A stretch of DNA of 33,534 nucleotides, taken from IMG/VR virus record IMGVR_UViG_2558860170_000005; one strand, given 5' to 3'. The DNA is from a virus (Duplodnaviria; Heunggongvirae; Uroviricota; Caudoviricetes). Shown in pieces: positions 11,473 to 28,850 of this stretch. The position numbers and the translations under genes are program-made. How positions within the stretch are numbered: position 1 is the stretch's first letter; every line of letters begins with the position of its first letter. The notes beneath the pieces were generated by a model, which did no database searches, was not told the origin of the DNA, and saw only the letters and a list, made by a program, of their open reading frames with translations.

Positions 11473-11748
11473 GTGGCTTCTGTTTCTATCAGCTGTCCCT
11501 CCTGTTCAGCTACTGACGGGGTGGTGCGTAACGGCAAAAGCACTGCCGGACATCAGCGCTATCTCTGCTCTCACTGCCGTAAAACATGGCAACTGCAGTT
11601 CACTTACACCGCTTCCCAACCCGGTACGCACCAGAAAATCATTGATATGGCCATGAATGGCGTTGGATGCCGGGCAACTGCACGCATTATGGGCGTTGGC
11701 CTCAACACGATTTTACGTCACTTAAAAAACTCAGGCCGCAGTCGGTAA
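11473..11748 (+). CDS. insA: IS1 InsA
   Basis: Same as copy 1. Confidence 0.95.
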
Positions 11749-12170
11749 CCTCGCGCATACAGCCGGGCAGTGACGTCATCGTCTGCGCGGAAATGGACGA
11801 ACAGTGGGGCTATGTCGGGGCTAAATCGCGCCAGCGCTGGCTGTTTTACGCGTATGACAGTCTCCGGAAGACGGTTGTTGCGCACGTATTCGGTGAACGC
11901 ACTATGGCGACGCTGGGGCGTCTTATGAGCCTGCTGTCACCCTTTGACGTGGTGATATGGATGACGGATGGCTGGCCGCTGTATGAATCCCGCCTGAAGG
12001 GAAAGCTGCACGTAATCAGCAAGCGATATACGCAGCGAATTGAGCGGCATAACCTGAATCTGAGGCAGCACCTGGCACGGCTGGGACGGAAGTCGCTGTC
12101 GTTCTCAAAATCGGTGGAGCTGCATGACAAAGTCATCGGGCATTATCTGAACATAAAACACTATCAATAA
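11667..12170 (+). CDS. insB: IS1 InsB
   Basis: Same as copy 1. Confidence 0.95.
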
Positions 12171-12277: not shown

Positions 12278-12433
12278 TTACTCTCTAGATTCGTAGTCTA
12301 CGAAAACAGCGACCTCCGTCTGGCCGATTCGGATTCGTACCTCGCAGAGGTCTTTCCTCGTTACCAGTGCCGTCACAATGACGGTTAAACAGATGACGAT
12401 CAGGGCGATTAACATCGCCTTTTGCTGCTTCAT
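12278..12433 (-). CDS. hok: Hok-family type I toxin
   Basis: MKQQKAMLIALIVICLTVIVTALVTRKDLCEVRIRIGQTEVAVF… single TM; near-identical to HokD/RelF as I recall it. Confidence 0.85.
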   Translation of the reverse strand: MKQQKAMLIALIVICLTVIVTALVTRKDLCEVRIRIGQTEVAVFVDYESRE

Positions 12434-12490
12434 AGCCTGCTTCTCCTTGCCTTTCGGCACGTAAGAGGCTAACCTACATTTGTGAGACAT
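12278..12490 (-). CDS. mok: Mok-like overlapping reading frame
   Basis: 70-codon frame starting upstream of and co-terminal with hok, as in hok/mok/sok loci. Confidence 0.5.
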   Translation of the reverse strand: MSHKCRLASYVPKGKEKQAMKQQKAMLIALIVICLTVIVTALVTRKDLCEVRIRIGQTEVAVFVDYESRE

Positions 12491-12775
12491 AGATTGGGCC
12501 TCAGATTAATGTTAAGCGTCTTGCAGGACGCGTAATGTTAACTGGGGCTTTTCTCTGTCTGCCTTACAGTGACATACCCGAGGCAGACAGCCTCAAGCAC
12601 CCGCAGCAATCTTACCGACACCGATAAGAAAACGCTATTTTTTATTGCCAGCACCATCTATCCAGGCTAGTTTATCTGCGTCAGAACGGCGCAATGCGCT
12701 CGCCTGAGATACGTTTACTTGCCATGGTAACAACAGGTAACGGCAATTGCTGTTTCTGTTTTGTTTCCTTCAAAA

Positions 12776-14988: not shown

Positions 14989-15264
14989 GTGGCTTCTGTT
15001 TCTATCAGCTGTCCCTCCTGTTCAGCTACTGACGGGGTGGTGCGTAACGGCAAAAGCACTGCCGGACATCAGCGCTATCTCTGCTCTCACTGCCGTAAAA
15101 CATGGCAACTGCAGTTCACTTACACCGCTTCTCAACCCGGTACGCACCAGAAAATCATTGATATGGCCATGAATGGCGTTGGATGCCGGGCAACTGCACG
15201 CATTATGGGCGTTGGCCTCAACACGATTTTACGTCACTTAAAAAACTCAGGCCGCAGTCGGTAA
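14989..15264 (+). CDS. insA: IS1 InsA
   Basis: Same as copy 1. Confidence 0.95.
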
Positions 15265-15686
15265 CCTCGCGCATACAGCCGGGCAGTGACGTCATCGTCT
15301 GCGCGGAAATGGACGAACAGTGGGGCTATGTCGGGGCTAAATCGCGCCAGCGCTGGCTGTTTTACGCGTATGACAGTCTCCGGAAGACGGTTGTTGCGCA
15401 CGTATTCGGTGAACGCACTATGGCGACGCTGGGGCGTCTTATGAGCCTGCTGTCACCCTTTGACGTGGTGATATGGATGACGGATGGCTGGCCGCTGTAT
15501 GAATCCCGCCTGAAGGGAAAGCTGCACGTAATCAGCAAGCGATATACGCAGCGAATTGAGCGGCATAACCTGAATCTGAGGCAGCACCTGGCACGGCTGG
15601 GACGGAAGTCGCTGTCGTTCTCAAAATCGGTGGAGCTGCATGACAAAGTCATCGGGCATTATCTGAACATAAAACACTATCAATAA
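15183..15686 (+). CDS. insB: IS1 InsB
   Basis: Same as copy 1. Confidence 0.95.
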
Positions 15687-15904
15687 GTTGGAGTCATTAC
15701 CAACTCATCTTCTGGTTTTATTTCCATGCTCCTCTCCTTTGATGCGAATACCAGCGGTAATTGAAGCCTGATAGCTAATTTTACTCACAGTACCGCCTCC
15801 TGAAATTTCCCCTGATAAAACGCCAGCACGCGCTGCATAGTGAGGTAGCCTGAGTTTAACGGACACTCCTTCCTGAAATAGAATGGCATCAGAAGGAGCT
15901 AATA

Positions 15905-16207
15905 ATGAGCAGAAAAACCCAACGTTACTCTAAAGAGTTCAAAGCCGAAGCTGTCAGAACGGTTCTTGAAAATCAACTTTCGATCAGTGAAGGCGCTTCC
16001 CGATTATCTCTTCCTGAAGGCACTTTAGGACAATGGGTTACCGCCGCCAGAAAAGGGCTCGGTACTCCTGGTTCCCGCACGGTGGCTGAACTGGAATCTG
16101 AAATTCTGCAACTGCGTAAGGCGTTAAATGAAGCTCGCCTTGAGCGAGATATATTAAAAAAAGCAACAGCGTATTTTGCACAGGAGTCGCTGAAAAATAC
16201 GCGTTAA
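15905..16207 (+). CDS. IS600 OrfA
   Basis: Same as other copies (P20L variant). Confidence 0.95.
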   Translation: MSRKTQRYSKEFKAEAVRTVLENQLSISEGASRLSLPEGTLGQWVTAARKGLGTPGSRTVAELESEILQLRKALNEARLERDILKKATAYFAQESLKNTR

Positions 16208-16242
16208 TCGAACAATGGCGACAACAATTTCCCATTGAAGCG

Positions 16243-17061
16243 ATGTGTCAGGTATTTGGTGTATCCAGGAGCGGTTATTACAACTGGGTACAGCATGAAC
16301 CCTCAGACAGAAAACAAAGTGATGAGCGGCTAAAACTGGAGATTAAGGTGGCACATATCCGCACTCGCGAAACATATGGAACCCGGCGGCTCCAGACGGA
16401 GCTGGCAGAGAATGGCATCATCGTTGGTCGTGACCGACTGGCACGTCTTCGTAAGGAGCTAAGGCTACGCTGTAAGCAGAAACGCAAGTTCAGAGCGACT
16501 ACGAACTCGAACCACAATCTGCCAGTTGCGCCAAATCTGCTGAACCAGACGTTCGCTCCTACAGCACCAAATCAGGTCTGGGTGGCGGACCTGACGTATG
16601 TTGCCACACTGGAGGGATGGTTGTACCTCGCTGGCATCAAAGATGTTTATACGTGCGAAATTGTCGGCTACGCCATGGGAGAGCGCATGACAAAAGAGCT
16701 GACAGGTAAAGCCCTGTTTATGGCGCTCAGGAGCCAGCGCCCACCTGCCGGGCTAATCCACCACTCTGATCGAGGTTCACAGTACTGCGCATACGATTAC
16801 CGGGTCATACAGGAGCAGTTTGGTCTGAAAACATCAATGTCGCGTAAAGGTAACTGTTACGACAACGCTCCGATGGAAAGCTTCTGGGGAACGCTGAAAA
16901 ATGAGAGCCTGAGCCACTATCGTTTTAATAACCGGGATGAAGCCATCTCAGTAATACGGGAATACATTGAGATTTTCTACAATCGTCAGCGTCGTCACTC
17001 TCGTCTGGGGAATATCTCCCCGGCAGCCTTCAGGGAAAAATATCATCAGATGGCTGCTTAA
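16243..17061 (+). CDS. IS600 OrfB
   Basis: Same as other copies (Q→L variant in VATLEGW). Confidence 0.95.
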   Translation: MCQVFGVSRSGYYNWVQHEPSDRKQSDERLKLEIKVAHIRTRETYGTRRLQTELAENGIIVGRDRLARLRKELRLRCKQKRKFRATTNSNHNLPVAPNLLNQTFAPTAPNQVWVADLTYVATLEGWLYLAGIKDVYTCEIVGYAMGERMTKELTGKALFMALRSQRPPAGLIHHSDRGSQYCAYDYRVIQEQFGLKTSMSRKGNCYDNAPMESFWGTLKNESLSHYRFNNRDEAISVIREYIEIFYNRQRRHSRLGNISPAAFREKYHQMAA

Positions 17062-17488
17062 AAAAAGAACAAATGGTAGTGTCCGCTATTGCCAGTACAC
17101 CTCATAGCTTCGCTCTTCCGGCACTCGCGACAGATTATATTCAGGCGCCTGTCGTAGCGGCGTATTTCTCCGTCTGGTAATGACCAGATAAGGTCAGGAT
17201 CAACCACAACCGGTTTCTTCACCTTTACCCTCGATAGCTTTTTGCGGGCGTTTTGCCAGTCTTTATGAGCCTGTTCAGAGGGAAATACCCCGTAGCCAGA
17301 ATTATATACATCACCACTTGCGACCAGTTCCATGCATAAGCGACCGACAGACGCACGACTGATACCTGTTTCATCTGACAACTGCCGAATCGTGACCCGA
17401 CCGTCCTGATGCACGAGTTCCACAATTCGCGTCTTCAGTTCTTCCCGCTGTTCGGGAGTAAAAGGTTTCGCCATAAATCCTCCTGAAA

Positions 17489-18235
17489 CTACTTAACAAC
17501 CCTCGAATGGCTAACATTCGGACGCCAGCTCTCCCAGTTAAAATTCACCCAGCGCCCGCCGTTCATGACCATGCGATCCATCACCCGCTCGCCGAGAAGT
17601 GTATTCATCGCTGCATGGTTAATATTTGTCAGCATCCCCACACCGCGTAACGATGCCGTCCGGCGATCAACAATCTGGTTCAGTACCACCTGCTCGTTTT
17701 TCGTATCCCGCTGCATGCCAATTTCATCCAGGACCAGCAGGTCAACACCACAAAGCTCCTGTAAAAATTTTTCACCGGATTTGCCGTTGTCGTAGCTCTC
17801 ATGCAACACGCTCATGACATCGGACACGGTGACGATAATCACGCTACGCCCCTTCGCCATCAGCCGGTTGCCAATCGCGTCTGCAAGATGATTTTTTCCG
17901 GTGCCGGGCTTACCGCTGAACACAAAATTCGTACAGCCTGTCATCAGTTCGTCAGCTATGGATTTCGCCTGACTCAGTGCATGTCGCTGACCGTCGTTCT
18001 GCGCCCGGTAATTCGCAAACGAACACTTCCGGTGCAACGGCTGGATGCCGGAGCGGTTCAGGATTTTTTCCACCCGCAACTGACGATTCAGGCGGTTGAT
18101 CTCCTCGCAACGTTTCTGGCCTTCAGCAAGTTGCCACTCGCGCCACTCCGCAACCGTTCTGAATGGGGCGGTTACATGTGGTGGGGTCAGTCTGCGGATA
18201 CGCTCCAGAACGCCTCCTGTCGCAATATTTTTCAT
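17489..18235 (-). CDS. DnaC-like helicase loader (phage replication protein)
   Basis: Walker A FSGKPGTGKNHLA, Walker B DLLVLDEIG; overall resemblance to E. coli DnaC / Rac YdaV. Confidence 0.75.
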   Translation of the reverse strand: MKNIATGGVLERIRRLTPPHVTAPFRTVAEWREWQLAEGQKRCEEINRLNRQLRVEKILNRSGIQPLHRKCSFANYRAQNDGQRHALSQAKSIADELMTGCTNFVFSGKPGTGKNHLADAIGNRLMAKGRSVIIVTVSDVMSVLHESYDNGKSGEKFLQELCGVDLLVLDEIGMQRDTKNEQVVLNQIVDRRTASLRGVGMLTNINHAAMNTLLGERVMDRMVMNGGRWVNFNWESWRPNVSHSRVVK

Positions 18236-18241
18236 GGTCTG

Positions 18242-19393
18242 TTACCCCCTGAAGCCTGGCGGGATCGCACTGTCCGGCAACGAGACGGTGTTAACCTGTC
18301 GGAGCAACGTCTCAGGCCGAACACCTTTCGGCGCGAACAGACCCTGGTATTCATTGGCGATGCTGTGTCGAATCACCTGCTCAGGTGTAAAACCCTGCTG
18401 ACGGAATTTTTCCAGTTCCCGTATCGCCCCGTTAGCGCCCTGCTCCGTTCGAATCGGTTTTCGCAATGCCTGCCTGAACTGGACCCACTCATGCCAGAGT
18501 GTTTCTGGCAACCAGTCGGGCAGATCAACTGACAACGGGTCAAATTTTTTCTGGCGAACAGCCCCACCGATAACCAGAATTCCCTGCTCGGTGTGCCTTG
18601 CGATATCACTGCGCCGCAAGACACATATCCCGGTTTCAACAGCACCGATTTTGAGCAGTGATTTCTGTCGCGGAGAATTTCGGTCAAGCTCGCTCCCACA
18701 CCGGACACCGTTCCTGTCAGTCACGACGATATCAATCCGCCCTCCGCAACCGTCACCACGCTCTGGCACCGGATACTCACGACAGACATCCAGGCCAGCA
18801 GCCTGCAACGCAACCACCGCAGAATTACAAAATTCCGCTGCAGTACCGCCAGATAATCTCCCCTCAAGCACTCCAGCCACAAAATCCCGAAACTCCCTTC
18901 CGGAAGGGAAGGGTTTGGGATGGGTTAGATCTGTTTTTAGATCTTTATCTGTATCTTTATTAGTTGCCTTTGTGTTGGCATCATGTTCGAACATCACTCC
19001 AACATCTGTTTGAACACCTGTTAAATTTCTCTCTTGTTTTGTTTGAACATCTGCTTCCTTTCTGCTTCTTCTGGCCTGAACAGATGCTTTTCCTGCGGCT
19101 GATTTTTTGGTTAATTTTTCTCTGACAGATGCCAGATCTTCCTCAATCCGAAGATGCATCCATTCGTCGCCGTTATCACAAAAAAACTCCCGCAAGGATG
19201 GTTCAACATCAACCCATCGCTCGTTAGTCAGACGGGCAATTTTTGCCAACCTGTTTTTGGGTATTGGCTTTCCTGTTTGCCAGTAATTGAACATCAGCAA
19301 CAAATACGCGCCGTGCTCCTCTGCTGACAAATGCATGGTGTCAGCCAGGTAATCAGCTATGTACAGTTGCATGTATGGTAATGCGGCCATAAT
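18242..19393 (-). CDS. Replication initiator (YdaU/DUF1376-type N-terminus, O-like role)
   Basis: N-terminal …LPYMQLYIADYLADTMHLSAEEHGAY… motif; lies immediately upstream of the DnaC-like gene; iteron cluster inside. Start could be 19441 instead. Confidence 0.6.
   Translation of the reverse strand: MMAALPYMQLYIADYLADTMHLSAEEHGAYLLLMFNYWQTGKPIPKNRLAKIARLTNERWVDVEPSLREFFCDNGDEWMHLRIEEDLASVREKLTKKSAAGKASVQARRSRKEADVQTKQERNLTGVQTDVGVMFEHDANTKATNKDTDKDLKTDLTHPKPFPSGREFRDFVAGVLEGRLSGGTAAEFCNSAVVALQAAGLDVCREYPVPERGDGCGGRIDIVVTDRNGVRCGSELDRNSPRQKSLLKIGAVETGICVLRRSDIARHTEQGILVIGGAVRQKKFDPLSVDLPDWLPETLWHEWVQFRQALRKPIRTEQGANGAIRELEKFRQQGFTPEQVIRHSIANEYQGLFAPKGVRPETLLRQVNTVSLPDSAIPPGFRG
18984..19051. 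repeat. Iteron-like repeats (candidate origin) inside the initiator gene
   Basis: TGTTCGAACATC (18984), TGTTTGAACACC (19007), TGTTTGAACATC (19040); adjacent AT-rich tract with TTAGATCT repeated at 18925 and 18937. Confidence 0.5.
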
Positions 19394-19453
19394 TGCCCCG
19401 TATGATGCTGCCCGGTTGCTTAGAATAAGCACAAACAGCATGGAAACTTTTGC

Positions 19454-19876
19454 TTAATGAACAATGACAGAATCGTCGGAAGACCCGCCGCCGCTGAAAT
19501 GCGCTTTCCGGTAAACGGCCTGGACTGCATCATCATGCGCATCAATTGCCGTACTCAACGCTTCCTGCGCCGCCAGTAATGCACGGCGTTCCAGGGTATC
19601 GAAGATGCAGAGTCGGTGACGCAGCTCGCGCGGAAGAATTGCCAGAACCGCAGGGATCAGTTTCTGAATTTTTTCCCTTTGCGCTTTCGTTTCACCTTTC
19701 AACCAACGGTGATAGATATTCTGCTGATTGTTCCAGTCCTTGCCTGGTACAAGGGGCAATTCGCCGCCCCCCTGGCGCAGATATTCTTCAGTAATTGCGT
19801 TAGCGACCCACGCCTGCCCTTTTTCGGCTGCCAGGGCTAACAACACTGATTCGATGTGCTCATGCCTGATTTTCAT
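19454..19876 (-). CDS. YdaT-like phage regulatory protein
   Basis: 140-aa ORF directly downstream of the cro-like gene with ATGA-type overlap, same position as Rac ydaT. Confidence 0.4.
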   Translation of the reverse strand: MKIRHEHIESVLLALAAEKGQAWVANAITEEYLRQGGGELPLVPGKDWNNQQNIYHRWLKGETKAQREKIQKLIPAVLAILPRELRHRLCIFDTLERRALLAAQEALSTAIDAHDDAVQAVYRKAHFSGGGSSDDSVIVH

Positions 19877-20115
19877 GAATCAACCGCTCCTATGCTGTTT
19901 TCGCTATGCTTACCGTCTGGGGGGAATACATCGTCAAGTCCACAATGAGCGCCAAGCCGATTAAGGGTAGAAACAATTTTTCTGCACTCCTCTAGTCCAG
20001 GGGTACGAAAATTTGCTTCGTAATTTGCCAGTCGGCTTTGTATCCACCCTAACTGAACAGCAAGTTGTCTTTGAGACAGCCCAAGCTGTTTTCGATATGT
20101 TGAAATTTTGTTCAT
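19873..20115 (-). CDS. Cro-like HTH regulator (YdaS-like)
   Basis: 80-aa ORF with HTH (…LGLSQRQLAVQLGWIQSRLANYE…), divergent from the cI-like gene; GGAGG 8 nt upstream of ATG. Confidence 0.6.
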   Translation of the reverse strand: MNKISTYRKQLGLSQRQLAVQLGWIQSRLANYEANFRTPGLEECRKIVSTLNRLGAHCGLDDVFPPDGKHSENSIGAVDS

Positions 20116-20139
20116 TGAAAACCTCCGATGACAATTTTA

Positions 20140-20154
20140 AACACACCTTGTGTT
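20140..20154. promoter_or_regulatory. Operator palindrome AACAC-N5-GTGTT (OR-type)
   Basis: AACACACCTTGTGTT, 25-39 bp upstream of the cro-like start; same half-sites recur at 20715-20729. Confidence 0.55.
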
Positions 20155-20185
20155 ATATAGCCAAGCTGTTTTGTGTTTTATGTAA

Positions 20186-20200
20186 ATCACGATTCGTGAT
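20186..20200. promoter_or_regulatory. Operator-like palindrome ATCAC-N5-GTGAT
   Basis: ATCACGATTCGTGAT, perfect 15-bp palindrome just upstream of the cI-like start. Confidence 0.45.
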
Positions 20201-20211
20201 ACAAGGATGCA

Positions 20212-20631
20212 ATGGAAAAAGAAAACGAAAAAATTGCCGCTAGTAGGCTCAATGACAAAATTGCAATGCGTCTTAAAGAGCGCAGGCAGAAGCTTGGTTT
20301 ATCTCAAGGAAAACTTGCTGAAATCTGCGGATGGACGCAATCGCGTATAGGTAACTATGAGGCGGGCAGCAGAAATGTTGGAGTACATGACGCTGTCGTA
20401 TTGGGAAAGGCACTTGGCATATCTCCTCCTGAGCTCCTCTTTGGAGAACAGGAATCTTCTGAATTGTGGTTAAATGAATCCCAACGAAAACTTCTTGAGT
20501 TGTTTAACCAGCTACCGGGCTCAGAACAACAACGAATGATTGAGCTATTTGAAGTCCGGCTAAAAGAAATCGATGAGTATGTAGAAAAATATTTGAGAGG
20601 CAGGATTAAAGATAATCCCCCACCGGAATAA
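20212..20631 (+). CDS. CI-like repressor (XRE-family HTH)
   Basis: 139-aa ORF with N-terminal HTH (…LGLSQGKLAEICGWTQSRIGNYE…), divergent from the cro-like gene and followed by a terminator. Confidence 0.6.
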   Translation: MEKENEKIAASRLNDKIAMRLKERRQKLGLSQGKLAEICGWTQSRIGNYEAGSRNVGVHDAVVLGKALGISPPELLFGEQESSELWLNESQRKLLELFNQLPGSEQQRMIELFEVRLKEIDEYVEKYLRGRIKDNPPPE

Positions 20632-20661
20632 TGATCTTGCTATCACAGTAATATGCCAATC

Positions 20662-20686
20662 AGCCCGCTATCAGCGGGCTTTTTTG
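20662..20686 (+). terminator. Intrinsic terminator after the repressor gene
   Basis: AGCCCGC-tatca-GCGGGCT followed by TTTTTTG. Confidence 0.65.
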
Positions 20687-20714
20687 TAGCATCATCATAT
20701 GACACTCACCATAA

Positions 20715-20756
20715 AACACATTGCGTGTTGACACAAGAAAACAAATTGTGTTTAAT
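20715..20756 (+). promoter_or_regulatory. PL-like early promoter with overlapping operator
   Basis: -35 TTGACA (20728-20733), 17-bp spacer, -10 TTTAAT (20751-20756); palindrome AACACATTGCGTGTT (20715-20729) overlaps the -35. Confidence 0.5.
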
Positions 20757-20936
20757 AAGCATATCCAAACAACGCCCCACCAGAGAACGGCAGGACAATA
20801 CCTCGAGTTATCCAGTCACTGAACAGGGCTAAGTAGCCAGCCTGAGGCATACGAACATGACGGCAGTTGTTGATTGATACAAAGCGCAGTAGATAAAACG
20901 TTCCGCCACCCGGCGTTAAGGGGAAATGGGGTCAAC

Positions 20937-21092
20937 ATGAATACTATCGATCTTGGCAACAACGAATCTCTGGTATGTGGCGTGTTTCCCAATCAAGACG
21001 GCACATTCACCGCCATGACGTATACCAAAAGCAAAACGTTTAAAACCGAAGCTGGCGCACGTCGTTGGTTGGGAAGACATTCAGGTGAGTAA
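20937..21092 (+). CDS. DUF1391-type small phage protein (YdaF-like)
   Basis: 51-aa MNTIDLGNNESLVCGVFPNQDGTFTAMTYTK…; first gene after the PL-like promoter. Confidence 0.5.
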   Translation: MNTIDLGNNESLVCGVFPNQDGTFTAMTYTKSKTFKTEAGARRWLGRHSGE

Positions 21093-21126
21093 AATGAACG
21101 AGACAGAATTAAAACACGTTATCGCT

Positions 21127-22288
21127 CTACTCCTAAATAGCTGCGCGGAATAGTAGATCACTTTGAGGGAACTTAGCCCGGATTGTGCGATCTGATCAAT
21201 CGCCAAATCAAAACAAATCACCAACCGGACTGAGCAATGCCGATCATAGCACCAATTTCCCGTGACGAACGACGCCTGATGCAGAAAGCCATCCATAAAA
21301 CACACGATAAAAATTATGCCCGCAGACTGACTGCCATGCTGATGCTGCACCGGGGCGACCGTGTCAGCGACGTTGCCAGAACGCTCTGCTGCGCCCGTTC
21401 CTCTGTTGGACGCTGGATTAACTGGTTCACGCAGTCGGGTGTTGAGGGACTGAAATCATTACCTGCCGGGCGTGCCCGTCGCTGGCCGTTTGAGCATATC
21501 TGCACACTGTTACGTGAGCTGGTAAAACATTCTCCCGGCGACTTTGGCTACCAGCGTTCACGCTGGAGTACAGAACTGCTGGCAATAAAAATCAATGAGA
21601 TAACCGGTTGCCAGTTAAATGCCGGAACCGTTCGCCGCTGGTTGCCGTCTGCGGGGATTGTGTGGCGAAGGGCTGCGCCAACTCTGCGTATCCGTGACCC
21701 GCATAAAGATGAAAAGATGGCAGCAATCCATAAAGCACTGGACGAATGCAGCGCAGAGCATCCGGTCTTTTATGAAGATGAAGTGGATATCCATCTTAAT
21801 CCCAAAATCGGTGCGGACTGGCAACTGCGCGGACAGCAAAAACGGGTGGTCACGCCGGGACAGAATGAAAAATATTATCTGGCCGGAGCGCTGCACAGCG
21901 GGACAGGTAAAGTCAGCTGTGTGGGCGGCAACAGCAAAAGTTCGGCGCTGTTCATCAGCCTGCTGAAGCGGCTTAAAGCGACATACCGTCGGGCGAAAAC
22001 CATCACGCTGATCGTGGACAACTACATTATCCACAAAAGCCGGGAAACACAGAGCTGGCTGAAGGAGAACCCGAAGTTCAGGGTCATTTATCAGCCGGTT
22101 TACTCGCCATGGGTGAATCATGTTGAACGGCTATGGCAGGCACTTCACGACACAATAACGCGTAATCATCAGTGCAGCTCAATGTGGCAACTGTTGAAAA
22201 AAGTTCGCCATTTTATGGAAACCGTCAGCCCATTCCCCGGAGGCAAACATGGGCTGGCAAAAGTGTAGCGGTATTAAGCGCAGCTATT
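21127..22288 (+). mobile_element. IS630 (Tc1/mariner-like), inserted at CTAG with TA duplication
   Basis: Terminal inverted repeat AATAGCTGCGC…; flanks …CTCC-TA | IS | TA-GAAG rebuild a CTAG target; 343-aa transposase. Confidence 0.85.
21237..22268 (+). CDS. IS630 transposase
   Basis: 343-aa MPIIAPISRDERRLMQKAIHKTHDKNYARRL… recognised as IS630 transposase. Confidence 0.9.
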   Translation: MPIIAPISRDERRLMQKAIHKTHDKNYARRLTAMLMLHRGDRVSDVARTLCCARSSVGRWINWFTQSGVEGLKSLPAGRARRWPFEHICTLLRELVKHSPGDFGYQRSRWSTELLAIKINEITGCQLNAGTVRRWLPSAGIVWRRAAPTLRIRDPHKDEKMAAIHKALDECSAEHPVFYEDEVDIHLNPKIGADWQLRGQQKRVVTPGQNEKYYLAGALHSGTGKVSCVGGNSKSSALFISLLKRLKATYRRAKTITLIVDNYIIHKSRETQSWLKENPKFRVIYQPVYSPWVNHVERLWQALHDTITRNHQCSSMWQLLKKVRHFMETVSPFPGGKHGLAKV

Positions 22289-22725: not shown

Positions 22726-23226
22726 TTCCTTACTGGTTGTGTGAGAACTTCAGTAAAGATACCACCAAAGCCCGGAGGTGGTGAAATAAAACCGGGCACA
22801 ACACGAAGGCGCATTTCCGGTATCCATAAAGAGTCGGTCTTGTCTGTTAAATTTAAATGGTGGGAGTGCGCCTCCGGTTGTAAATAACGACATTGCTGTG
22901 TGAAGTACCAGTTGGCGGCATCGGTTTAATTGCTGGCTGATGTCCGCCCTTTTTAAAGTGAATTTTGTGATGCGGTGAATGCGGCTCAGCGCACGCGGAA
23001 CAGTTAAAACAGTAAGGAAAATCCCTTATTCCGGCGTTAATTGTTAACTGGTTAACGTCACCTGGAGGCACCAGGCACCGCATCAACAAAGTTCACTTCG
23101 GTGATGAAAGGAAAGAGAAAATGTTGAATGTAGCTATTGAAAACCAGAACGGGTGGAATTATAGTGCACCTGCACCTCATAAAACGGGTGCCGGGATTGC
23201 TACCCCGAAGTCATTCACGGCGCATA

Positions 23227-23248
23227 ACCGCGCTCAGGCGGTTTTTTT
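23227..23248 (+). terminator. Putative intrinsic terminator / attenuator upstream of Rha
   Basis: ACCGC-gctcag-GCGGT followed by TTTTTTT. Confidence 0.5.
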
Positions 23249-23414
23249 ATGCGTAATGCACAGCCACATTCAAATTATGGTGGGGCGTGCGGGGCAGTCG
23301 CAAGACTGGCCGGGTTCCGTGATGACCGGTTGTAGCAACCCTGTACGTCTCACCACCCATGAGATTGCTACCTCCGGTGGTGAGTTAATCAAATTCATCG
23401 CGGAGGCTGCCATC

Positions 23415-23966
23415 ATGGCTACTACCCTTTCTCACCCTTGTGTAACCGTAGAAAACGGTCGCGCTGTCACTACGTCTGTTGCGGTTGCAGAGTTCTTCCA
23501 CAAACGACACGACAATGTGTTACGTGCCATCGCAAATATTGAATGCTCAGATAAATTTACTGCCCTCAATTTTGAAGCGAGCGAATACACCGACTCAATC
23601 GGGCGCAAACTCCCAATGTACCAAATCACCAAAAACGGCTTCGTTTTCCTGGTTATGGGCTTCACTGGCAAAAAAGCCGCTGCATTCAAAGAAGCCTACA
23701 TTGCTGAGTTCGACCGCATGGAGGCCGAACTGCGCCAGAATAACACCCCACCTGCTGACAAGATGATTCCGGGTGATGGTCGCACTCTGGTTGTTCACTT
23801 CGACAAATTCGGCAATGTCGAATTCACCGAAACCGTTCCTGATGGCGCACTGGTCTGTACCCTGGAGACTTTCCGGTTTTATCTGGAAAAACAGGGATGG
23901 ACTCTTGTTAACCGGGGCGCAATTAAAAATATGACTGTGGAACAATTACTCAAAATTCATTGTTGA
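23415..23966 (+). CDS. rha: Rha-family phage regulatory protein
   Basis: N-terminal …TTSVAVAEFFHKRHDNVLRAIANI… Rha signature; ATG at 23415 with GGAGG 8 nt upstream. The upstream open frame from 23121 is probably leader. Confidence 0.7.
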   Translation: MATTLSHPCVTVENGRAVTTSVAVAEFFHKRHDNVLRAIANIECSDKFTALNFEASEYTDSIGRKLPMYQITKNGFVFLVMGFTGKKAAAFKEAYIAEFDRMEAELRQNNTPPADKMIPGDGRTLVVHFDKFGNVEFTETVPDGALVCTLETFRFYLEKQGWTLVNRGAIKNMTVEQLLKIHC

Positions 23967-24908: not shown

Positions 24909-25211
24909 ATGAGCAGAAAAACCCAACGTTACTCTAAAGAGTTCAAAGCCGAAGCTGTCAGAACGGTTCCTGAAAATCAACTTTCGATCAGTGAAGGCGC
25001 TTCCCGATTATCTCTTCCTGAAGGCACTTTAGGACAATGGGTTACCGCCGCCAGAAAAGGGCTCGGTACTCCTGGTTCCCGCACGGTGGCTGAACTGGAA
25101 TCTGAAATTCTGCAACTGCGTAAGGCGTTAAATGAAGCTCGCCTTGAGCGAGATATATTAAAAAAAGCAACAGCGTATTTTGCACAGGAGTCGCTGAAAA
25201 ATACGCGTTAA
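24909..25211 (+). CDS. IS600 OrfA
   Basis: Same as other copies. Confidence 0.95.
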   Translation: MSRKTQRYSKEFKAEAVRTVPENQLSISEGASRLSLPEGTLGQWVTAARKGLGTPGSRTVAELESEILQLRKALNEARLERDILKKATAYFAQESLKNTR

Positions 25212-25246
25212 TCGAACAATGGCGACAACAATTTCCCATTGAAGCG

Positions 25247-26065
25247 ATGTGTCAGGTATTTGGTGTATCCAGGAGCGGTTATTACAACTGGGTACAGCAT
25301 GAACCCTCAGACAGAAAACAAAGTGATGAGCGGCTAAAACTGGAGATTAAGGTGGCACATATCCGCACTCGCGAAACATATGGAACCCGGCGGCTCCAGA
25401 CGGAGCTGGCAGAGAATGGCATCATCGTTGGTCGTGACCGACTGGCACGTCTTCGTAAGGAGCTAAGGCTACGCTGTAAGCAGAAACGCAAGTTCAGAGC
25501 GACTACGAACTCGAACCACAATCTGCCAGTTGCGCCAAATCTGCTGAACCAGACGTTCGCTCCTACAGCACCAAATCAGGTCTGGGTGGCGGACCTGACG
25601 TATGTTGCCACACAGGAGGGATGGTTGTACCTCGCTGGCATCAAAGATGTTTATACGTGCGAAATTGTCGGCTACGCCATGGGAGAGCGCATGACAAAAG
25701 AGCTGACAGGTAAAGCCCTGTTTATGGCGCTCAGGAGCCAGCGCCCACCTGCCGGGCTAATCCACCACTCTGATCGAGGTTCACAGTACTGCGCATACGA
25801 TTACCGGGTCATACAGGAGCAGTCTGGTCTGAAAACATCAATGTCGCGTAAAGGTAACTGTTACGACAACGCTCCGATGGAAAGCTTCTGGGGAACGCTG
25901 AAAAATGAGAGCCTGAGCCACTATCGTTTTAATAACCGGGATGAAGCCATCTCAGTAATACGGGAATACATTGAGATTTTCTACAATCGTCAGCGTCGTC
26001 ACTCTCGTCTGGGGAATATATCCCCGGCAGCCTTCAGGGAAAAATATCATCAGATGGCTGCTTAA
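25247..26065 (+). CDS. IS600 OrfB
   Basis: Same as other copies. Confidence 0.95.
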
Positions 26066-27693: not shown

Positions 27694-28512
27694 TTAAGCA
27701 GCCATCTGATGATATTTTTCCCTGAAGGCTGCCGGGGAGATATTCCCCAGACGAGAGTGACGACGCTGACGATTGTAGAAAATCTCAATGTATTCCCGTA
27801 TTACTGAGATGGCTTCATCCCGGTTATTAAAACGATAGTGGCTCAGGCTCTCATTTTTCAGCGTTCCCCAGAAGCTTTCCATCGGAGCGTTGTCGTAACA
27901 GTTACCTTTACGCGACATTGATGTTTTCAGACCAGACTGCTCCTGTATGACCCGGTAATCGTATGCGCAGTACTGTGAACCTCGATCAGAGTGGTGGATT
28001 AGCCCGGCAGGTGGGCGCTGGCTCCTGAGCGCCATAAACAGGGCTTTACCTGTCAGCTCTTTTGTCATGCGCTCTCCCATGGCGTAGCCGACAATTTCGC
28101 ACGTATAAACATCTTTGATGCCAGCGAGGTACAACCATCCCTCCTGTGTGGCAACATACGTCAGGTCCGCCACCCAGACCTGATTTGGTGCTGTAGGAGC
28201 GAACGTCTGGTTCAGCAGATTTGGCGCAACTGGCAGATTGTGGTTCGAGTTCGTAGTCGCTCTGAACTTGCGTTTCTGCTTACAGCGTAGCCTTAGCTCC
28301 TTACGAAGACGTGCCAGTCGGTCACGACCAACGATGATGCCATTCTCTGCCAGCTCCGTCTGGAGCCGCCGGGTTCCATATGTTTCGCGAGTGCGGATAT
28401 GTGCCACCTTAATCTCCAGTTTTAGCCGCTCATCACTTTGTTTTCTGTCTGAGGGTTCATGCTGTACCCAGTTGTAATAACCGCTCCTGGATACACCAAA
28501 TACCTGACACAT
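27694..28512 (-). CDS. IS600 OrfB
   Basis: Same as other copies. Confidence 0.95.
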   Translation of the reverse strand: MCQVFGVSRSGYYNWVQHEPSDRKQSDERLKLEIKVAHIRTRETYGTRRLQTELAENGIIVGRDRLARLRKELRLRCKQKRKFRATTNSNHNLPVAPNLLNQTFAPTAPNQVWVADLTYVATQEGWLYLAGIKDVYTCEIVGYAMGERMTKELTGKALFMALRSQRPPAGLIHHSDRGSQYCAYDYRVIQEQSGLKTSMSRKGNCYDNAPMESFWGTLKNESLSHYRFNNRDEAISVIREYIEIFYNRQRRHSRLGNISPAAFREKYHQMAA

Positions 28513-28547
28513 CGCTTCAATGGGAAATTGTTGTCGCCATTGTTCGA

Positions 28548-28850
28548 TTAACGCGTATTTTTCAGCGACTCCTGTGCAAAATACGCTGTTGCTTTTTTTA
28601 ATATATCTCGCTCAAGGCGAGCTTCATTTAACGCCTTACGCAGTTGCAGAATTTCAGATTCCAGTTCAGCCACCGTGCGGGAACCAGGAGTACCGAGCCC
28701 TTTTCTGGCGGCGGTAACCCATTGTCCTAAAGTGCCTTCAGGAAGAGATAATCGGGAAGCGCCTTCACTGATCGAAAGTTGATTTTCAGGAACCGTTCTG
28801 ACAGCTTCGGCTTTGAACTCTTTAGAGTAACGTTGGGTTTTTCTGCTCAT
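28548..28850 (-). CDS. IS600 OrfA
   Basis: Same as other copies. Confidence 0.95.
   Translation of the reverse strand: MSRKTQRYSKEFKAEAVRTVPENQLSISEGASRLSLPEGTLGQWVTAARKGLGTPGSRTVAELESEILQLRKALNEARLERDILKKATAYFAQESLKNTR

What the first reader, a model, noticed from the sequence alone, without database searches (positions are those of the whole stretch)
20140..20756. Shared operator half-sites (AACAC-N5-GTGTT) at both the cro/cI switch and a PL-like promoter
AACACACCTTGTGTT upstream of cro and AACACATTGCGTGTT overlapping the -35 of a well-formed promoter (TTGACA, 17 bp, TTTAAT) after the cI terminator. A third palindrome ATCACGATTCGTGAT lies just upstream of cI. This reproduces the lambda OR/OL logic with a distinct operator sequence.
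Basis: seen in the sequence. Interest (0 to 1): 0.55.

Follow-up and report, generated by a model that had tools for sequence, protein, structure and literature searches.

The report
Lambda-type operators of a prophage switch
The repeated palindromes are almost certainly the repressor-binding sites of an ordinary lambda-like prophage on/off switch whose short repressor cannot cut itself. The motif is not a new one, because phage lambda's own OR2 operator has exactly the same form.

Summary
AACAC-N5-GTGTT occurs exactly twice in 33.5 kb (0.05 expected), at 20140 and 20715, and ATCACGATTCGTGAT lies at 20186.

The layout is more regular than reported. There are three sites at a 23-bp pitch between the divergent cro-like and repressor genes. 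Two more sites, also 23 bp apart, lie over a TTGACA promoter after the repressor terminator.

Three lines of evidence support them as operators:
- In 49 haplotypes of this cassette the half-sites are almost invariant (pi 0.006), while the central 5 bp and the inter-site spacers vary (pi about 0.12).
- Across 303 related loci, the first residues of the recognition helix covary with half-site positions 2 and 3, in both regulatory regions.
- The cro-like protein carries the same QSR..NYE helix as the repressor.

The claim of a "distinct operator sequence" does not hold. Lambda OR2 is T-AACAC-CGTGC-GTGTT-G and overlaps the -35 hexamer in the same register. The lambda consensus half-site is TATCAC. 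The repressor's DNA-binding domain aligns with lambda cI and keeps the equivalents of Gln33, Gln44 and Ser45.

The locus belongs to the known DicA/Gifsy/RacR class of short, non-cleavable repressors. It has a YdaT-like gene and a ydfA-like first gene of the leftward operon, and it sits in an IS-ridden cryptic prophage. It is a new member of a known kind. Protein binding itself was not tested.

The parts
19454..19876 (-). YdaT-family gene (140 aa), the functional counterpart of lambda cII in Rac and CP-933P type prophages
   Evidence: Matches Pfam PF06254 YdaT_toxin at E 2.4e-11. Annotated 'toxin YdaT family' in near-identical E. coli records.
19866..19883 (+). Candidate YdaT box, CTGATTTTCATGAATCAA, spanning the cro stop and the ydaT start
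   Evidence: One mismatch to the published YdaT site TTGATT-N6-AATCAA (PMC9986795). The scan found 4 matches at up to 2 mismatches against 2.6 expected, so the position rather than the count is what suggests a real site.
19873..20115 (-). Cro-like 80-aa helix-turn-helix protein (YdaS/DicC analogue) with recognition helix W-IQSRLANYE
   Evidence: Pfam HTH_3 at E 6.7e-10. It carries the same QSR..NYE helix as the repressor. Its helix-start residue covaries with the operator class across the family.
20116..20759 (.). Exchangeable immunity cassette: OR operators, repressor gene, terminator, and OL operators with the PL-like promoter
   Evidence: Homology to phage vB_Apl-pPE4 (L008) stops at 20115 (95.5% identical up to there) and resumes at 20760 (99.4%). 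Between those points the repressor is 61-62% identical and the operators have a different flavour.
20140..20154 (.). OR1, a perfect palindrome AACAC-ACCTT-GTGTT that overlaps the -10 region of the leftward PR-like promoter
   Evidence: All 10 half-site columns are invariant in 49 haplotypes, while the central 5 bp have pi 0.13.
20136..20164 (-). PR-like promoter for cro: -35 TTGGCT (20164-20159), 17-bp spacer, -10 TTTAAA (20141-20136). The alternative -10 TAAAAT (20139-20134) has a 19-bp spacer
   Evidence: Read from the sequence. The register relative to OR2 and OR1 is identical to lambda PR, where the last TTG of the 17-mer operator starts the -35. Most relatives have TTGACC here. Not called by the consensus scan. 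The transcription start is unmapped.
20163..20177 (.). OR2, AAGCT-GTTTT-GTGTT, with only the right half-site conserved; overlaps the PR -35
   Evidence: Lies exactly 23 bp from both OR1 and OR3. The right half GTGTT is invariant in 49 haplotypes. Whether it is occupied, presumably cooperatively, is inferred.
20186..20200 (.). OR3, a perfect palindrome ATCAC-GATTC-GTGAT next to the repressor gene
   Evidence: Half-sites are invariant in 49 haplotypes. ATCAC half-sites are mixed with AACAC half-sites in the operator sets of relatives such as mEp213 and pAEv1818. It matches the lambda consensus half-site.
20212..20631 (+). 139-aa repressor: N-terminal HTH_3 domain plus a C-terminal helical hairpin, with no S24 peptidase domain
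   Evidence: Pfam. 29% identical to DicA over its full length, E 2e-15. 34% identical to the lambda cI N-terminal domain over 58 aa, with the Gln33, Gln44 and Ser45 equivalents conserved. AlphaFold model with pLDDT 87.
20662..20687 (+). Intrinsic terminator of the repressor transcript
   Evidence: An 8-pair stem with 6 G-C pairs, a 3-nt loop and a T run.
20715..20729 (.). OL site over the -35, a perfect palindrome AACAC-ATTGC-GTGTT
   Evidence: Half-sites are invariant in 49 haplotypes and the central 5 bp have pi 0.16. The overlap GTGTTGACA is the same as at lambda OL2/PL.
20728..20756 (+). PL-like promoter: TTGACA, 17 bp, TTTAAT (alternative -10 TAATAA at 20753-20758 with a 19-bp spacer)
   Evidence: TTGAC(A/T) in the same register is present in all relatives examined. 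It corresponds in position to Qin dicBp upstream of ydfA (PMC10448788). Not called by the consensus scan because the -10 lacks A at position 2.
20738..20752 (.). OL site over the spacer and -10, AAAAC-AAATT-GTGTT (one mismatch)
   Evidence: It is 23 bp from the other OL site. The right half is invariant, the left half nearly so, and the centre is the most variable stretch (pi 0.27).
20760..20936 (+). Leader of the PL transcript, lying outside the immunity cassette
   Evidence: 99.4% identical to L008. It is a diverged version of a roughly 64-nt element conserved after PL in relatives and in 50 phage records.
20937..21092 (+). ydfA-like gene (DUF1391, 51 aa), the first gene of the PL operon
   Evidence: Pfam PF07151 at E 5.8e-29. 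90% identical to Qin YdfA.

Best explanation
The region 20116-20759 is the immunity cassette of a lambdoid prophage of the DicA/Gifsy/RacR type. It resembles Rac and Qin and is now cryptic and riddled with insertion sequences.

The proposed mechanism is as follows. The 139-aa repressor, presumably acting as a dimer, and the 80-aa Cro-like protein both carry a QSR..NYE recognition helix. Both bind 15-bp operators of the form A(A/T)CAC-N5-GTG(T/A)T.

Three operators at a 23-bp pitch fill the 96-bp gap between the divergent cro-like and repressor genes. OR1 lies over the -10 of the leftward promoter, the half-palindromic OR2 over its -35, and OR3 next to the repressor gene. Two more operators, also 23 bp apart, cover the -35 and the -10 of a rightward PL-like promoter placed just after the repressor terminator. 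That promoter drives ydfA and the early-left operon.

Repressor bound at these sites would shut both lytic promoters. The weaker half-palindromic sites would be filled cooperatively. Cro would act through the same sites, probably starting at OR3. Because the repressor has no self-cleavage domain, release would come from an antirepressor rather than from RecA-stimulated cleavage.

Shown here: the sequence layout, the conservation pattern, the protein/DNA covariation and the homologies. Inferred: actual binding, the order of site occupancy, cooperativity, the promoter start points and the route of induction.
For: 1. The motif is non-random and confined to the two regulatory regions.
2. The pitch is regular: sites start at 20140, 20163 and 20186, and at 20715 and 20738, each 23 bp apart. 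Lambda's operators are 23, 24, 24 and 20 bp apart.
3. In 49 haplotypes of this cassette, mean pi is 0.006 for half-sites, 0.127 for the central N5 and 0.121 for inter-operator spacers. Third codon positions give 0.028 (repressor) and 0.048 (cro). Half-sites differ from spacers at Mann-Whitney p = 6e-9.
4. Relatives whose repressors are 57-65% identical, and the S24-type cI of phage mEp213, all have xxCAC-N5-GTGxx sites at a pitch of about 23 bp, both upstream and downstream of the repressor gene.
5. Covariation across 303 loci. Helix start xQ-SR goes with A at half-site position 2 (0.92-1.00). Helix start (A/S)TA-SR goes with G at position 2 (0.64-0.68), and the paired Cro has xR-SR. Helix starts SG(S/A), SAA and STP go with T at position 3 (about 1.0).
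6. The repressor's helix-turn-helix domain aligns with lambda cI and conserves the equivalents of Gln33, Gln44 and Ser45. The operators overlap the -35 hexamers in the same register as in lambda.
7. The repressor is a full-length homologue of DicA, the first downstream gene is 90% identical to YdfA, and a YdaT-family gene follows cro. This matches systems characterised experimentally: Qin (PMC3441716, PMC10448788), CP-933P (PMC8630535) and Gifsy (PMC3121763).
Against: - No binding, footprint or reporter data exist for this repressor. Every functional step is inferred.
- The -10 hexamers in the lambda register (TTTAAT, TTTAAA) lack the conserved A at -11, and the consensus promoter scan called neither PL nor PR.
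- No convincing promoter for the repressor gene itself could be identified.
- OR2 and the -10-proximal OL site are only half-palindromes, so their occupancy is a guess.
- The same Cro protein is found beside cassettes with a different operator flavour, so Cro's exact target is unclear.
- The prophage is degraded: IS630 sits inside the PL operon at 21136-22288 and several other insertion sequences are present. The switch may no longer operate as a bistable switch.
- The covariation counts used only sites with a perfect CAC-N5-GTG core, and the loci are phylogenetically related.
Confidence: 0.85

Rival explanations
1. One reading: a lambda-like circuit that uses an operator alphabet of its own, unrelated to lambda's.
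For: The central 5 bp are A/T-rich and variable, unlike lambda's CCGC-type centres. The repressor is only 34% identical to the lambda cI N-terminal domain and has a different C-terminal half. The operators do differ from those of Qin DicA (TTGTTAGTCATAACTAACAA, PMC3441716) and of CP-933P PaaR2 (GTTTAGTAA, PMC8630535).
Against: Lambda OR2 fits AACAC-N5-GTGTT exactly. OL1, OL2 and OR3 fit AWCAC-N5-GTGWT with one mismatch (5 matches in 2.9 kb against 0.29 expected, one of them not an annotated operator). The overlap with the -35 (GTGTTGAC) is identical in both phages. The Gln-Ser start of the recognition helix is shared.
Confidence: 0.1
2. The sites are real operators, but in this genome they are a relic. 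The repressor only keeps toxic early genes silent (cro/ydaT and the leftward genes) in a dead prophage, and no bistable switch or induction remains.
For: IS630 is inserted in the PL operon at 21136-22288. Repeated pairs of equal-length ORFs suggest several further insertion sequences, although I did not identify them. The window's PR -35 is TTGGCT where most relatives have TTGACC. RacR and DicA play exactly this silencing role in the cryptic prophages of E. coli K-12 (PMC5700373, PMC10448788).
Against: The cro, ydaT, replication and repressor genes are intact, and homology to other E. coli genomes is 99.5% over 17091-21135. The repressor protein is 100% identical to that of 9 IMG/VR loci. All operator half-sites are intact. 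Qin, itself cryptic, still shows DicC-dependent bistability (PMC10448788).
Confidence: 0.4
3. The palindromes are bound mainly by a protein other than the adjacent repressor, such as the YdaT-like cII analogue or a host factor, or they act as RNA hairpins.
For: YdaT homologues do bind the racR-ydaS intergenic region in Rac (PMC11879457). Each palindrome could form a 5-bp hairpin.
Against: The published YdaT site is TTGATT-N6-AATCAA, and the only good match lies elsewhere, at 19866-19883. Half-site letters covary with the recognition helices of the adjacent repressor and Cro. The stems are short and A/T-rich and are not followed by T runs. The sites lie upstream of the predicted transcription start points.
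Confidence: 0.04
4. The palindromes occur by chance.
For: With two mismatches allowed the motif is at background frequency: 13 matches against 16 expected.
Against: There are 2 exact matches against 0.05 expected. The spacing is a regular 23 bp. The half-sites are invariant amid variable neighbouring bases. The sites recur in relatives whose repressors are 57-65% identical.
Confidence: 0.01

Closest known systems
Phage lambda OR/OL operators with cI and Cro
   Same: - Divergent repressor and cro genes, with three operators in the gap between them.
- A second operator set over PL, on the far side of the repressor gene.
- Operator spacing of 23-24 bp.
- Half-site A(T/A)CAC with a 5-bp centre.
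- The operator end TTG forms the start of the -35 at both PR and PL.
- A Gln-Ser start to the recognition helix in both the repressor and Cro.
   Different: - The repressor is 139 aa and has no S24 self-cleavage domain.
- The centre of the operator is not conserved, whereas lambda's positions 7-8 are.
- Cro here is an all-helical HTH_3 protein.
- OR and OL are about 575 bp apart rather than about 2.4 kb.
- There are no rexAB and no N/nutL. Only two OL sites are recognisable.
Qin prophage dicA / dicC / dicBp-ydfA (E. coli K-12)
   Same: - The repressor is a full-length homologue of DicA (29% identity, E 2e-15).
- The gene order is the same: cro-like gene, repressor, terminator, promoter, ydfA.
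- YdfA is 90% identical.
- DicA represses dicC and dicBp through operators on both sides (PMC3441716, PMC10448788).
   Different: - The operator sequence differs. DicA's Oc is TTGTTAGTCATAACTAACAA.
- The recognition helix differs (SHVSVSQWE against TQSRIGNYE).
- DicC has no detectable similarity to the window's Cro.
- Qin lacks ydaT.
CP-933P PaaR2 / YdaS / YdaT and Rac RacR / YdaS / YdaT switches
   Same: Each has a short repressor, a YdaS-type Cro and a YdaT gene as the cII analogue. In CP-933P the repressor and YdaS footprint overlapping operators in a 97-bp gap, and a PL promoter with matching OL operators was shown experimentally (PMC8630535, PMC9986795, PMC11879457).
   Different: The operator consensus is different (GTTTAGTAA inverted repeats, four sites). 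In CP-933P the repressor sits in an operon with a toxin-antitoxin pair. I did not compare the PaaR2 or RacR protein sequences with the window's repressor.
Gifsy-type non-cleavable repressors (GfoR, GfhR, GtgR) with antirepressors
   Same: Repressors of about 135-140 aa consisting of an HTH domain plus a short C-terminal part, and not cleaved on induction. Paralogues about 66% similar are heteroimmune and recognise different operators, much like the specificity classes seen here (PMC3121763).
   Different: No LexA box (CTGT-N8-ACAG) and no GfoA-like gene were found in the window. The candidate antirepressor here is a Rha-family gene preceded by isrK and C4 RNAs.
Phage mEp213 cI (S24-type) and its operators
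   Same: The HTH domain is 58% identical to the window's repressor. The operators are A(A/T)CAC-N5-GTG(T/A)T, three at OR and three at OL, and the OL2 overlap is GTGTTGACA.
   Different: It carries a full LexA-like cleavage domain and a lambda-type N/nutL leader.

Membership tests
Lambdoid bipartite immunity switch (OR plus OL) | Divergently transcribed repressor and cro genes separated by a short regulatory gap | tested here: met
   cro-like gene at 19873-20115 (minus strand), repressor at 20212-20631 (plus strand), 96-bp gap.
Lambdoid bipartite immunity switch (OR plus OL) | Several copies of one operator motif in the gap, about two helical turns apart | tested here: met
   Sites start at 20140, 20163 and 20186, a 23-bp pitch. 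Two are perfect palindromes and one has only the right half.
Lambdoid bipartite immunity switch (OR plus OL) | The same motif over a second early promoter on the other side of the repressor gene | tested here: met
   Sites at 20715 and 20738 overlap TTGACA-N17-TTTAAT. The same holds in all specificity classes of the family.
Lambdoid bipartite immunity switch (OR plus OL) | Repressor and Cro bind these sites, with differential affinity and cooperativity | not testable with these tools
   Support is indirect only: a shared QSR..NYE helix and protein/DNA covariation.
Lambdoid bipartite immunity switch (OR plus OL) | Functional sigma-70 promoters overlapped by the operators | tested here: inconclusive
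   The -35 hexamers are good and in the lambda register. The -10 hexamers lack A at position 2, and the consensus scan called neither promoter.
DicA / Gifsy / RacR short non-cleavable repressors | About 125-160 aa, N-terminal HTH_3 domain, no S24 peptidase domain | tested here: met
   Only HTH families match in Pfam. The model shows a five-helix HTH plus a helical hairpin.
DicA / Gifsy / RacR short non-cleavable repressors | Similarity to DicA that includes the C-terminal half | tested here: met
   29% identity over residues 14-135, E 2e-15, including the shared LLELFN.LP.SEQ segment.
DicA / Gifsy / RacR short non-cleavable repressors | Inactivated by a protein antirepressor | not testable with these tools
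   The candidate is a Rha-family gene at 23121-23966 with isrK and C4 RNAs upstream. No LexA box was found in the window.
Lambda cI / LexA-like cleavable repressors | C-terminal S24 peptidase domain with a self-cleavage site | tested here: not met
   There is no S24 match. The protein ends at residue 139. By contrast, mEp213 cI has the domain.
Lambda cI / LexA-like cleavable repressors | N-terminal HTH homologous to lambda cI, with the operator-contacting Gln33, Gln44 and Ser45 | tested here: met
   BLASTP gives 34% identity over 58 aa, E 3e-6, with all three residues aligned. Their roles in DNA contact are from my own knowledge of the lambda repressor-operator crystal structure (PDB 1LMB).
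Lambda operator family | Half-site with A at position 2, C at 4, A at 5 and C at 6, two-fold symmetric, 17-bp frame | tested here: met
   Window sites are AACAC or ATCAC. Lambda OR2 is AACAC...GTGTT and OL1 and OR3 carry ATCAC.
Qin (DicA) immunity specificity | Operator Oc, TTGTTAGTCATAACTAACAA, or close variants | tested here: not met
   No such sequence occurs in 20116-20211 or 20632-20760. The recognition helix differs.
CP-933P (PaaR2) immunity specificity | Inverted repeats with consensus GTTTAGTAA | tested here: not met
   Neither GTTTAGTAA nor its complement occurs in the two regulatory regions, as read.

The most novel reading that the evidence does not exclude
Because this repressor's operators use the same letters as lambda's (lambda OR2 is a perfect site, and OL1, OL2 and OR3 are one mismatch away), the cryptic prophage and lambda-like phages may cross-talk. 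The 139-aa repressor, or the Cro that is shared between two cassette types, could occupy the -35 regions of lambda PR and PL. Conversely, lambda-type cI proteins could silence this prophage.

That would be partial cross-immunity between a non-cleavable and a cleavable repressor system. The operator centre, which varies in this cassette, might be what tunes or insulates such cross-talk.
Probability: 0.12. Interest if true: 0.55.

Novelty: new member of a known kind. Interest (0 to 1): 0.3.

Why it matters
It matters modestly. The locus adds a clearly readable specificity class to the DicA/Gifsy/RacR family of short prophage repressors, which are common in Escherichia, Shigella, Salmonella, Klebsiella and Citrobacter genomes but are annotated only as "helix-turn-helix domain-containing protein".

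The family-wide covariation gives a small, testable recognition code. Gln at the helix start goes with A at half-site position 2, and Arg in the paired Cro proteins goes with G. It ties this family to the classical lambda repressor/operator pair.

The covariation also shows that the exchangeable immunity unit here leaves out cro. That has consequences for cross-talk between co-resident prophages. None of this changes the accepted picture of lambdoid switches.

Tried and rejected
- **Consensus promoter scan.** It called neither the PL-like nor the PR-like promoter, because both -10 hexamers lack A at position 2. I kept the promoters on the grounds of the lambda register and conservation in relatives, and I flag them as unproven.
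- **A third OL site at the 23-bp pitch.** Neither 20692-20706 nor 20761-20775 resembles the motif. Citrobacter relatives do have a third site.
- **YdaT as the binder.** Its published box differs, and its best match lies at 19866-19883, not at the palindromes.
- **LexA box.** CTGT-N8-ACAG was not found anywhere in the window.
- **The conserved leader after PL as a known RNA.** No Rfam family matched at gathering score in the window, or at E <= 1 in relative L001. There is no similarity to HK022 putL. The consensus fold has almost no covariation support.
- **Excess diversity of non-contacted operator positions as a general rule.** It holds for the window-type group. It does not hold for the Citrobacter-type or SGA-type groups, where third codon positions are as variable (pi about 0.10).
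- **A specific published name for this repressor.** All 120 listed relatives carry generic names, and the literature searches found nothing on this operator class.
- **A promoter for the repressor gene itself.** I found no convincing hexamers by eye.
- **Fold search of the model.** Only the HTH domain has close solved relatives (C.AhdI, P22 c2, 434). The C-terminal hairpin has none.
Full report
**1. What is in the sequence**

AACAC-N5-GTGTT occurs exactly twice in 33,534 bp, at 20140-20154 and 20715-20729. The expectation is 0.05, and none of 100 shuffles reached two matches.

Allowing mismatches brings in two more sites of interest:
- ATCACGATTCGTGAT at 20186-20200.
- AAAACAAATTGTGTT at 20738-20752.

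With two mismatches the motif as a whole is at background frequency (13 found, 16 expected). The argument therefore rests on the exact sites and their arrangement.

The arrangement is regular. In the 96-bp gap between the cro-like ATG (20115, minus strand) and the repressor ATG (20212), the two palindromes start 46 bp apart. The position midway between them, 20163-20177 (AAGCTGTTTTGTGTT), carries a perfect right half-site. After the repressor terminator (20662-20680 plus a T run), the two sites start 23 bp apart.

This gives three sites at a 23-bp pitch on one side of the repressor gene (OR) and two on the other (OL).

**2. The genes around it**

- The 139-aa protein matches only helix-turn-helix families in Pfam and has no S24 peptidase domain.
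- The 80-aa minus-strand protein is also an HTH_3 protein.
- It is followed by a YdaT-family gene, a DUF1376 replication gene and a DnaC/IstB-like ATPase.
- Downstream of the promoter lies a DUF1391 gene that is 90% identical to Qin YdfA.
- The repressor is 29% identical to DicA over its whole length (E 2e-15).
- The cro-like protein has no detectable similarity to DicC.
- An IS630 copy at 21136-22288 interrupts the leftward operon, as shown by comparison with a 99.5% identical E. coli locus.
- Repeated pairs of equal-length ORFs suggest several more insertion sequences, which I did not identify.
- 153 of 5,426 complete E. coli genomes carry at least 80% of the 19800-21150 region.

**3. Evidence that the sites are operators**

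*(a) Conservation within this cassette.* Eighty IMG/VR loci encode a repressor 83-100% identical to the window's. Among 49 distinct haplotypes of the group at 97% identity or above, mean nucleotide diversity differs sharply by site class:

| Site class | Mean pi |
|---|---|
| 50 half-site columns | 0.006 |
| Central N5 positions | 0.127 |
| Inter-operator spacers | 0.121 |
| Third codon positions, repressor | 0.028 |
| Third codon positions, cro | 0.048 |

Half-sites differ from spacers at Mann-Whitney p = 6e-9. The half-sites are islands of invariance in the most variable stretch of the locus.

*(b) Relatives at 57-65% repressor identity.* These come from Citrobacter, Enterobacter, Raoultella, Citrobacter phage Chris1 and Aeromonas phage pAEv1818. 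The S24-type cI of coliphage mEp213, whose HTH is 58% identical, was also examined. All have xxCAC-N5-GTGxx sites at a pitch of about 23 bp. In every relative that carries the full cro-repressor layout, the sites lie both upstream and downstream of the repressor gene, and the distal downstream site ends in TTGAC(A/T).

*(c) Covariation.* In 303 loci I sorted repressors by the residues between the invariant CGW and SR at the start of the recognition helix. I then tabulated the bases flanking every perfect CAC-N5-GTG core in the two regulatory regions.

| Helix start | Half-site result |
|---|---|
| TQ, AQ, VQ, ASQ | A at position 2 in 92-100% of half-sites |
| ATA, STA, ATG | G at position 2 in 62-68% |
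| SGS, SGA, SAA, STP | T at position 3 in about 100%; position 2 mostly T or C |

The paired Cro proteins follow the same rule. Cro has xQ-SR next to the A-type operators and xR-SR next to the G-type operators.

Gln pairing with adenine and Arg pairing with guanine is the usual amino-acid/base preference, and Gln44 of lambda repressor contacts the adenine at operator position 2. Both statements are from my own knowledge of the 1LMB structure and were not tested here.

Two caveats apply. Only sites with a perfect core were counted, and the loci are related to one another. Even so, three specificity classes, each containing several helix variants, show the pattern in both regulatory regions.

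**4. The operator is of the lambda type**

I fetched the lambda immunity region. OL1, OL2 and OR3 fit AWCAC-N5-GTGWT with one mismatch each. In total there are 5 matches in 2.9 kb against 0.29 expected, one of them outside the annotated operators.

The overlap with the -35 hexamer is the same to the base. Lambda has GTGTTGACT at PR and GTGTTGACA at PL. The window has GTGTTGACA at the PL-like promoter, and CAGCTTGGCT (TTGACC in most relatives) at the PR-like promoter on the minus strand.

Lambda's operators are 23 and 24 bp apart at OR, and 24 and 20 bp apart at OL.

The repressor's HTH domain aligns with the lambda cI N-terminal domain at 34% identity over 58 residues, with the equivalents of Gln33, Gln44 and Ser45 conserved. 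The statement that the locus uses "a distinct operator sequence" is therefore wrong.

What does differ from lambda is the operator centre, which is unconstrained here, and the non-HTH part of the repressor.

**5. Promoters**

In the lambda register (17-bp spacers) the -10 hexamers are TTTAAT for PL and TTTAAA for PR. The operator half-site GTGTT forces a T where the conserved A at -11 should be, and the consensus scan rejected both promoters for that reason.

Hexamers that have the A (TAATAA, TAAAAT) would need 19-bp spacers. Relatives with other operator flavours have GA-type -10 hexamers at 17 bp (GAGCAT, GATTAT, GAAACT) or TAATAT and TATAAT at 18-19 bp. Start-site mapping is needed.

I could not identify a promoter for the repressor gene itself.

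**6. The exchangeable unit**

Phage vB_Apl-pPE4 has an identical Cro (80 of 80 residues). Its DNA homology to the window ends at 20115 and resumes at 20760. Between those points lie a repressor 61-62% identical to the window's and operators of the (T/C)TCAC type.

This pairing is not a one-off. The same Cro type sits next to 28 distinct TQ-type cassettes and 14 distinct SGS-type cassettes. The immunity cassette therefore excludes cro.

Both operator flavours keep an ATCAC half-site in the site nearest the repressor gene. Cro may read mainly that site, but this is inference.

**7. How it probably works, and what is known**

The layout matches three systems studied experimentally:
- **Qin.** DicA binds Oc, represses dicC and dicBp upstream of ydfA, and is relieved by the antirepressor Rem (PMC3441716, PMC10448788).
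- **CP-933P.** PaaR2 and YdaS footprint overlapping operators, and a PL promoter with OL sites responds to both proteins (PMC8630535).
- **Gifsy prophages.** Their short repressors are not cleaved and are removed by antirepressors (PMC3121763).

The AlphaFold model (pLDDT 87) shows a five-helix HTH followed by a helical hairpin at 89-133. Only the HTH has close solved relatives: C.AhdI, P22 c2, 434 repressor and Stl. The hairpin is the likely surface for dimerisation and antirepressor binding, by analogy.

I conclude that this is a new specificity member of a known class.

**8. Limits**

Nothing here shows binding. I could not scan the host chromosome outside the window. The excess diversity of non-contacted operator positions over third codon positions is specific to this cassette group and was not reproduced in two sister groups.

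Noticed in passing
window 20116-20759 compared with L008 (PP818812.1, phage vB_Apl-pPE4): The immunity cassette is exchanged as a unit that excludes cro. An identical 80-aa Cro flanks two cassettes whose repressors are 61-62% identical and whose operators differ (A[A/T]CAC against [T/C]TCAC). In IMG/VR the same Cro type pairs with 28 distinct cassettes of the first kind and 14 of the second.
   Followed up: partly
window 20140-20200 and 20715-20752; loci L012-L076: In this cassette group the central 5 bp of the operators and the inter-operator spacers are 3-4 times more diverse (pi about 0.12) than third codon positions of the adjacent genes (0.03-0.05). The excess was not reproduced in the AQ-type and SGA-type sister groups.
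   Followed up: partly
window 20760-20936; L001 3017-3100 and about 115 other distinct leaders: A roughly 64-nt element, GTCATC.AGGCAGGACGCCCACGAAGTAGCTGCCGGCGGCATACGAAACACCGGATGAGATGAC, lies immediately downstream of the PL-type promoter in most family members and matches 50 phage records (ST64B, SfV, SfII, SPN3UB, mEp237 and others). It has no Rfam match and no similarity to HK022 putL, and the predicted structure has almost no covariation support. The window carries a diverged version with an insertion.
   Followed up: partly
window 23172-23248, 23273-23360, 23121-23966: Rfam finds isrK (64.8 bits) and C4 antisense RNA (79 bits) at the 5' end of an ORF that corresponds to a Rha-family phage regulatory protein in a near-identical E. 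coli locus. This looks like a P1-type c4/ant or Gifsy-type IsrK/AnrP module inside the PL operon, and it is a candidate antirepressor for the non-cleavable repressor.
   Followed up: no
window 19866-19883: CTGATTTTCATGAATCAA is one mismatch from the published YdaT box TTGATT-N6-AATCAA. It spans the cro stop and the ydaT start, the position where Rac and CP-933P carry their YdaT box for the reverse, PRE-like promoter.
   Followed up: no
window 21136-22288: An IS630-family element (343-aa DDE_3 transposase at 21237-22268) is inserted between the ydfA-like gene and the isrK/C4/Rha module, interrupting the PL operon. The boundaries were defined by alignment to an uninterrupted E. coli locus.
   Followed up: yes
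window 1128-3422, 11473-12170, 14989-17061, 24909-26065, 27694-28850, 31844-33000: Several repeated ORF pairs (100 aa + 272 aa, five copies; 91 aa + 167 aa, three copies) look like multiple copies of two insertion sequences. Such a load would suit a Shigella-like, heavily degraded prophage region. I inferred this from ORF lengths only and did not identify the elements.
   Followed up: no
window 30533-30711, 12428-12602, 9145-9452: Rfam hits at gathering score: RalA antitoxin sRNA (207 bits), sok antitoxin RNA (118 bits) and four tandem tRNA genes on the minus strand.
   Followed up: no
L005 (Phytobacter sp.) 2390-2500: A relative with a 43% identical repressor has a different palindrome, TAAGCCAAAGACTTA and TAAGCAAAAGACTTA, in the same upstream position. 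This is probably yet another specificity class with the same layout.
   Followed up: no
window 20159-20164: The window, together with 6 of the related loci, has TTGGCT at the PR-like -35, and 2 further loci have TTGACT, where most relatives have TTGACC. The TTGGCT variant may weaken the cro promoter in this lineage.
   Followed up: no
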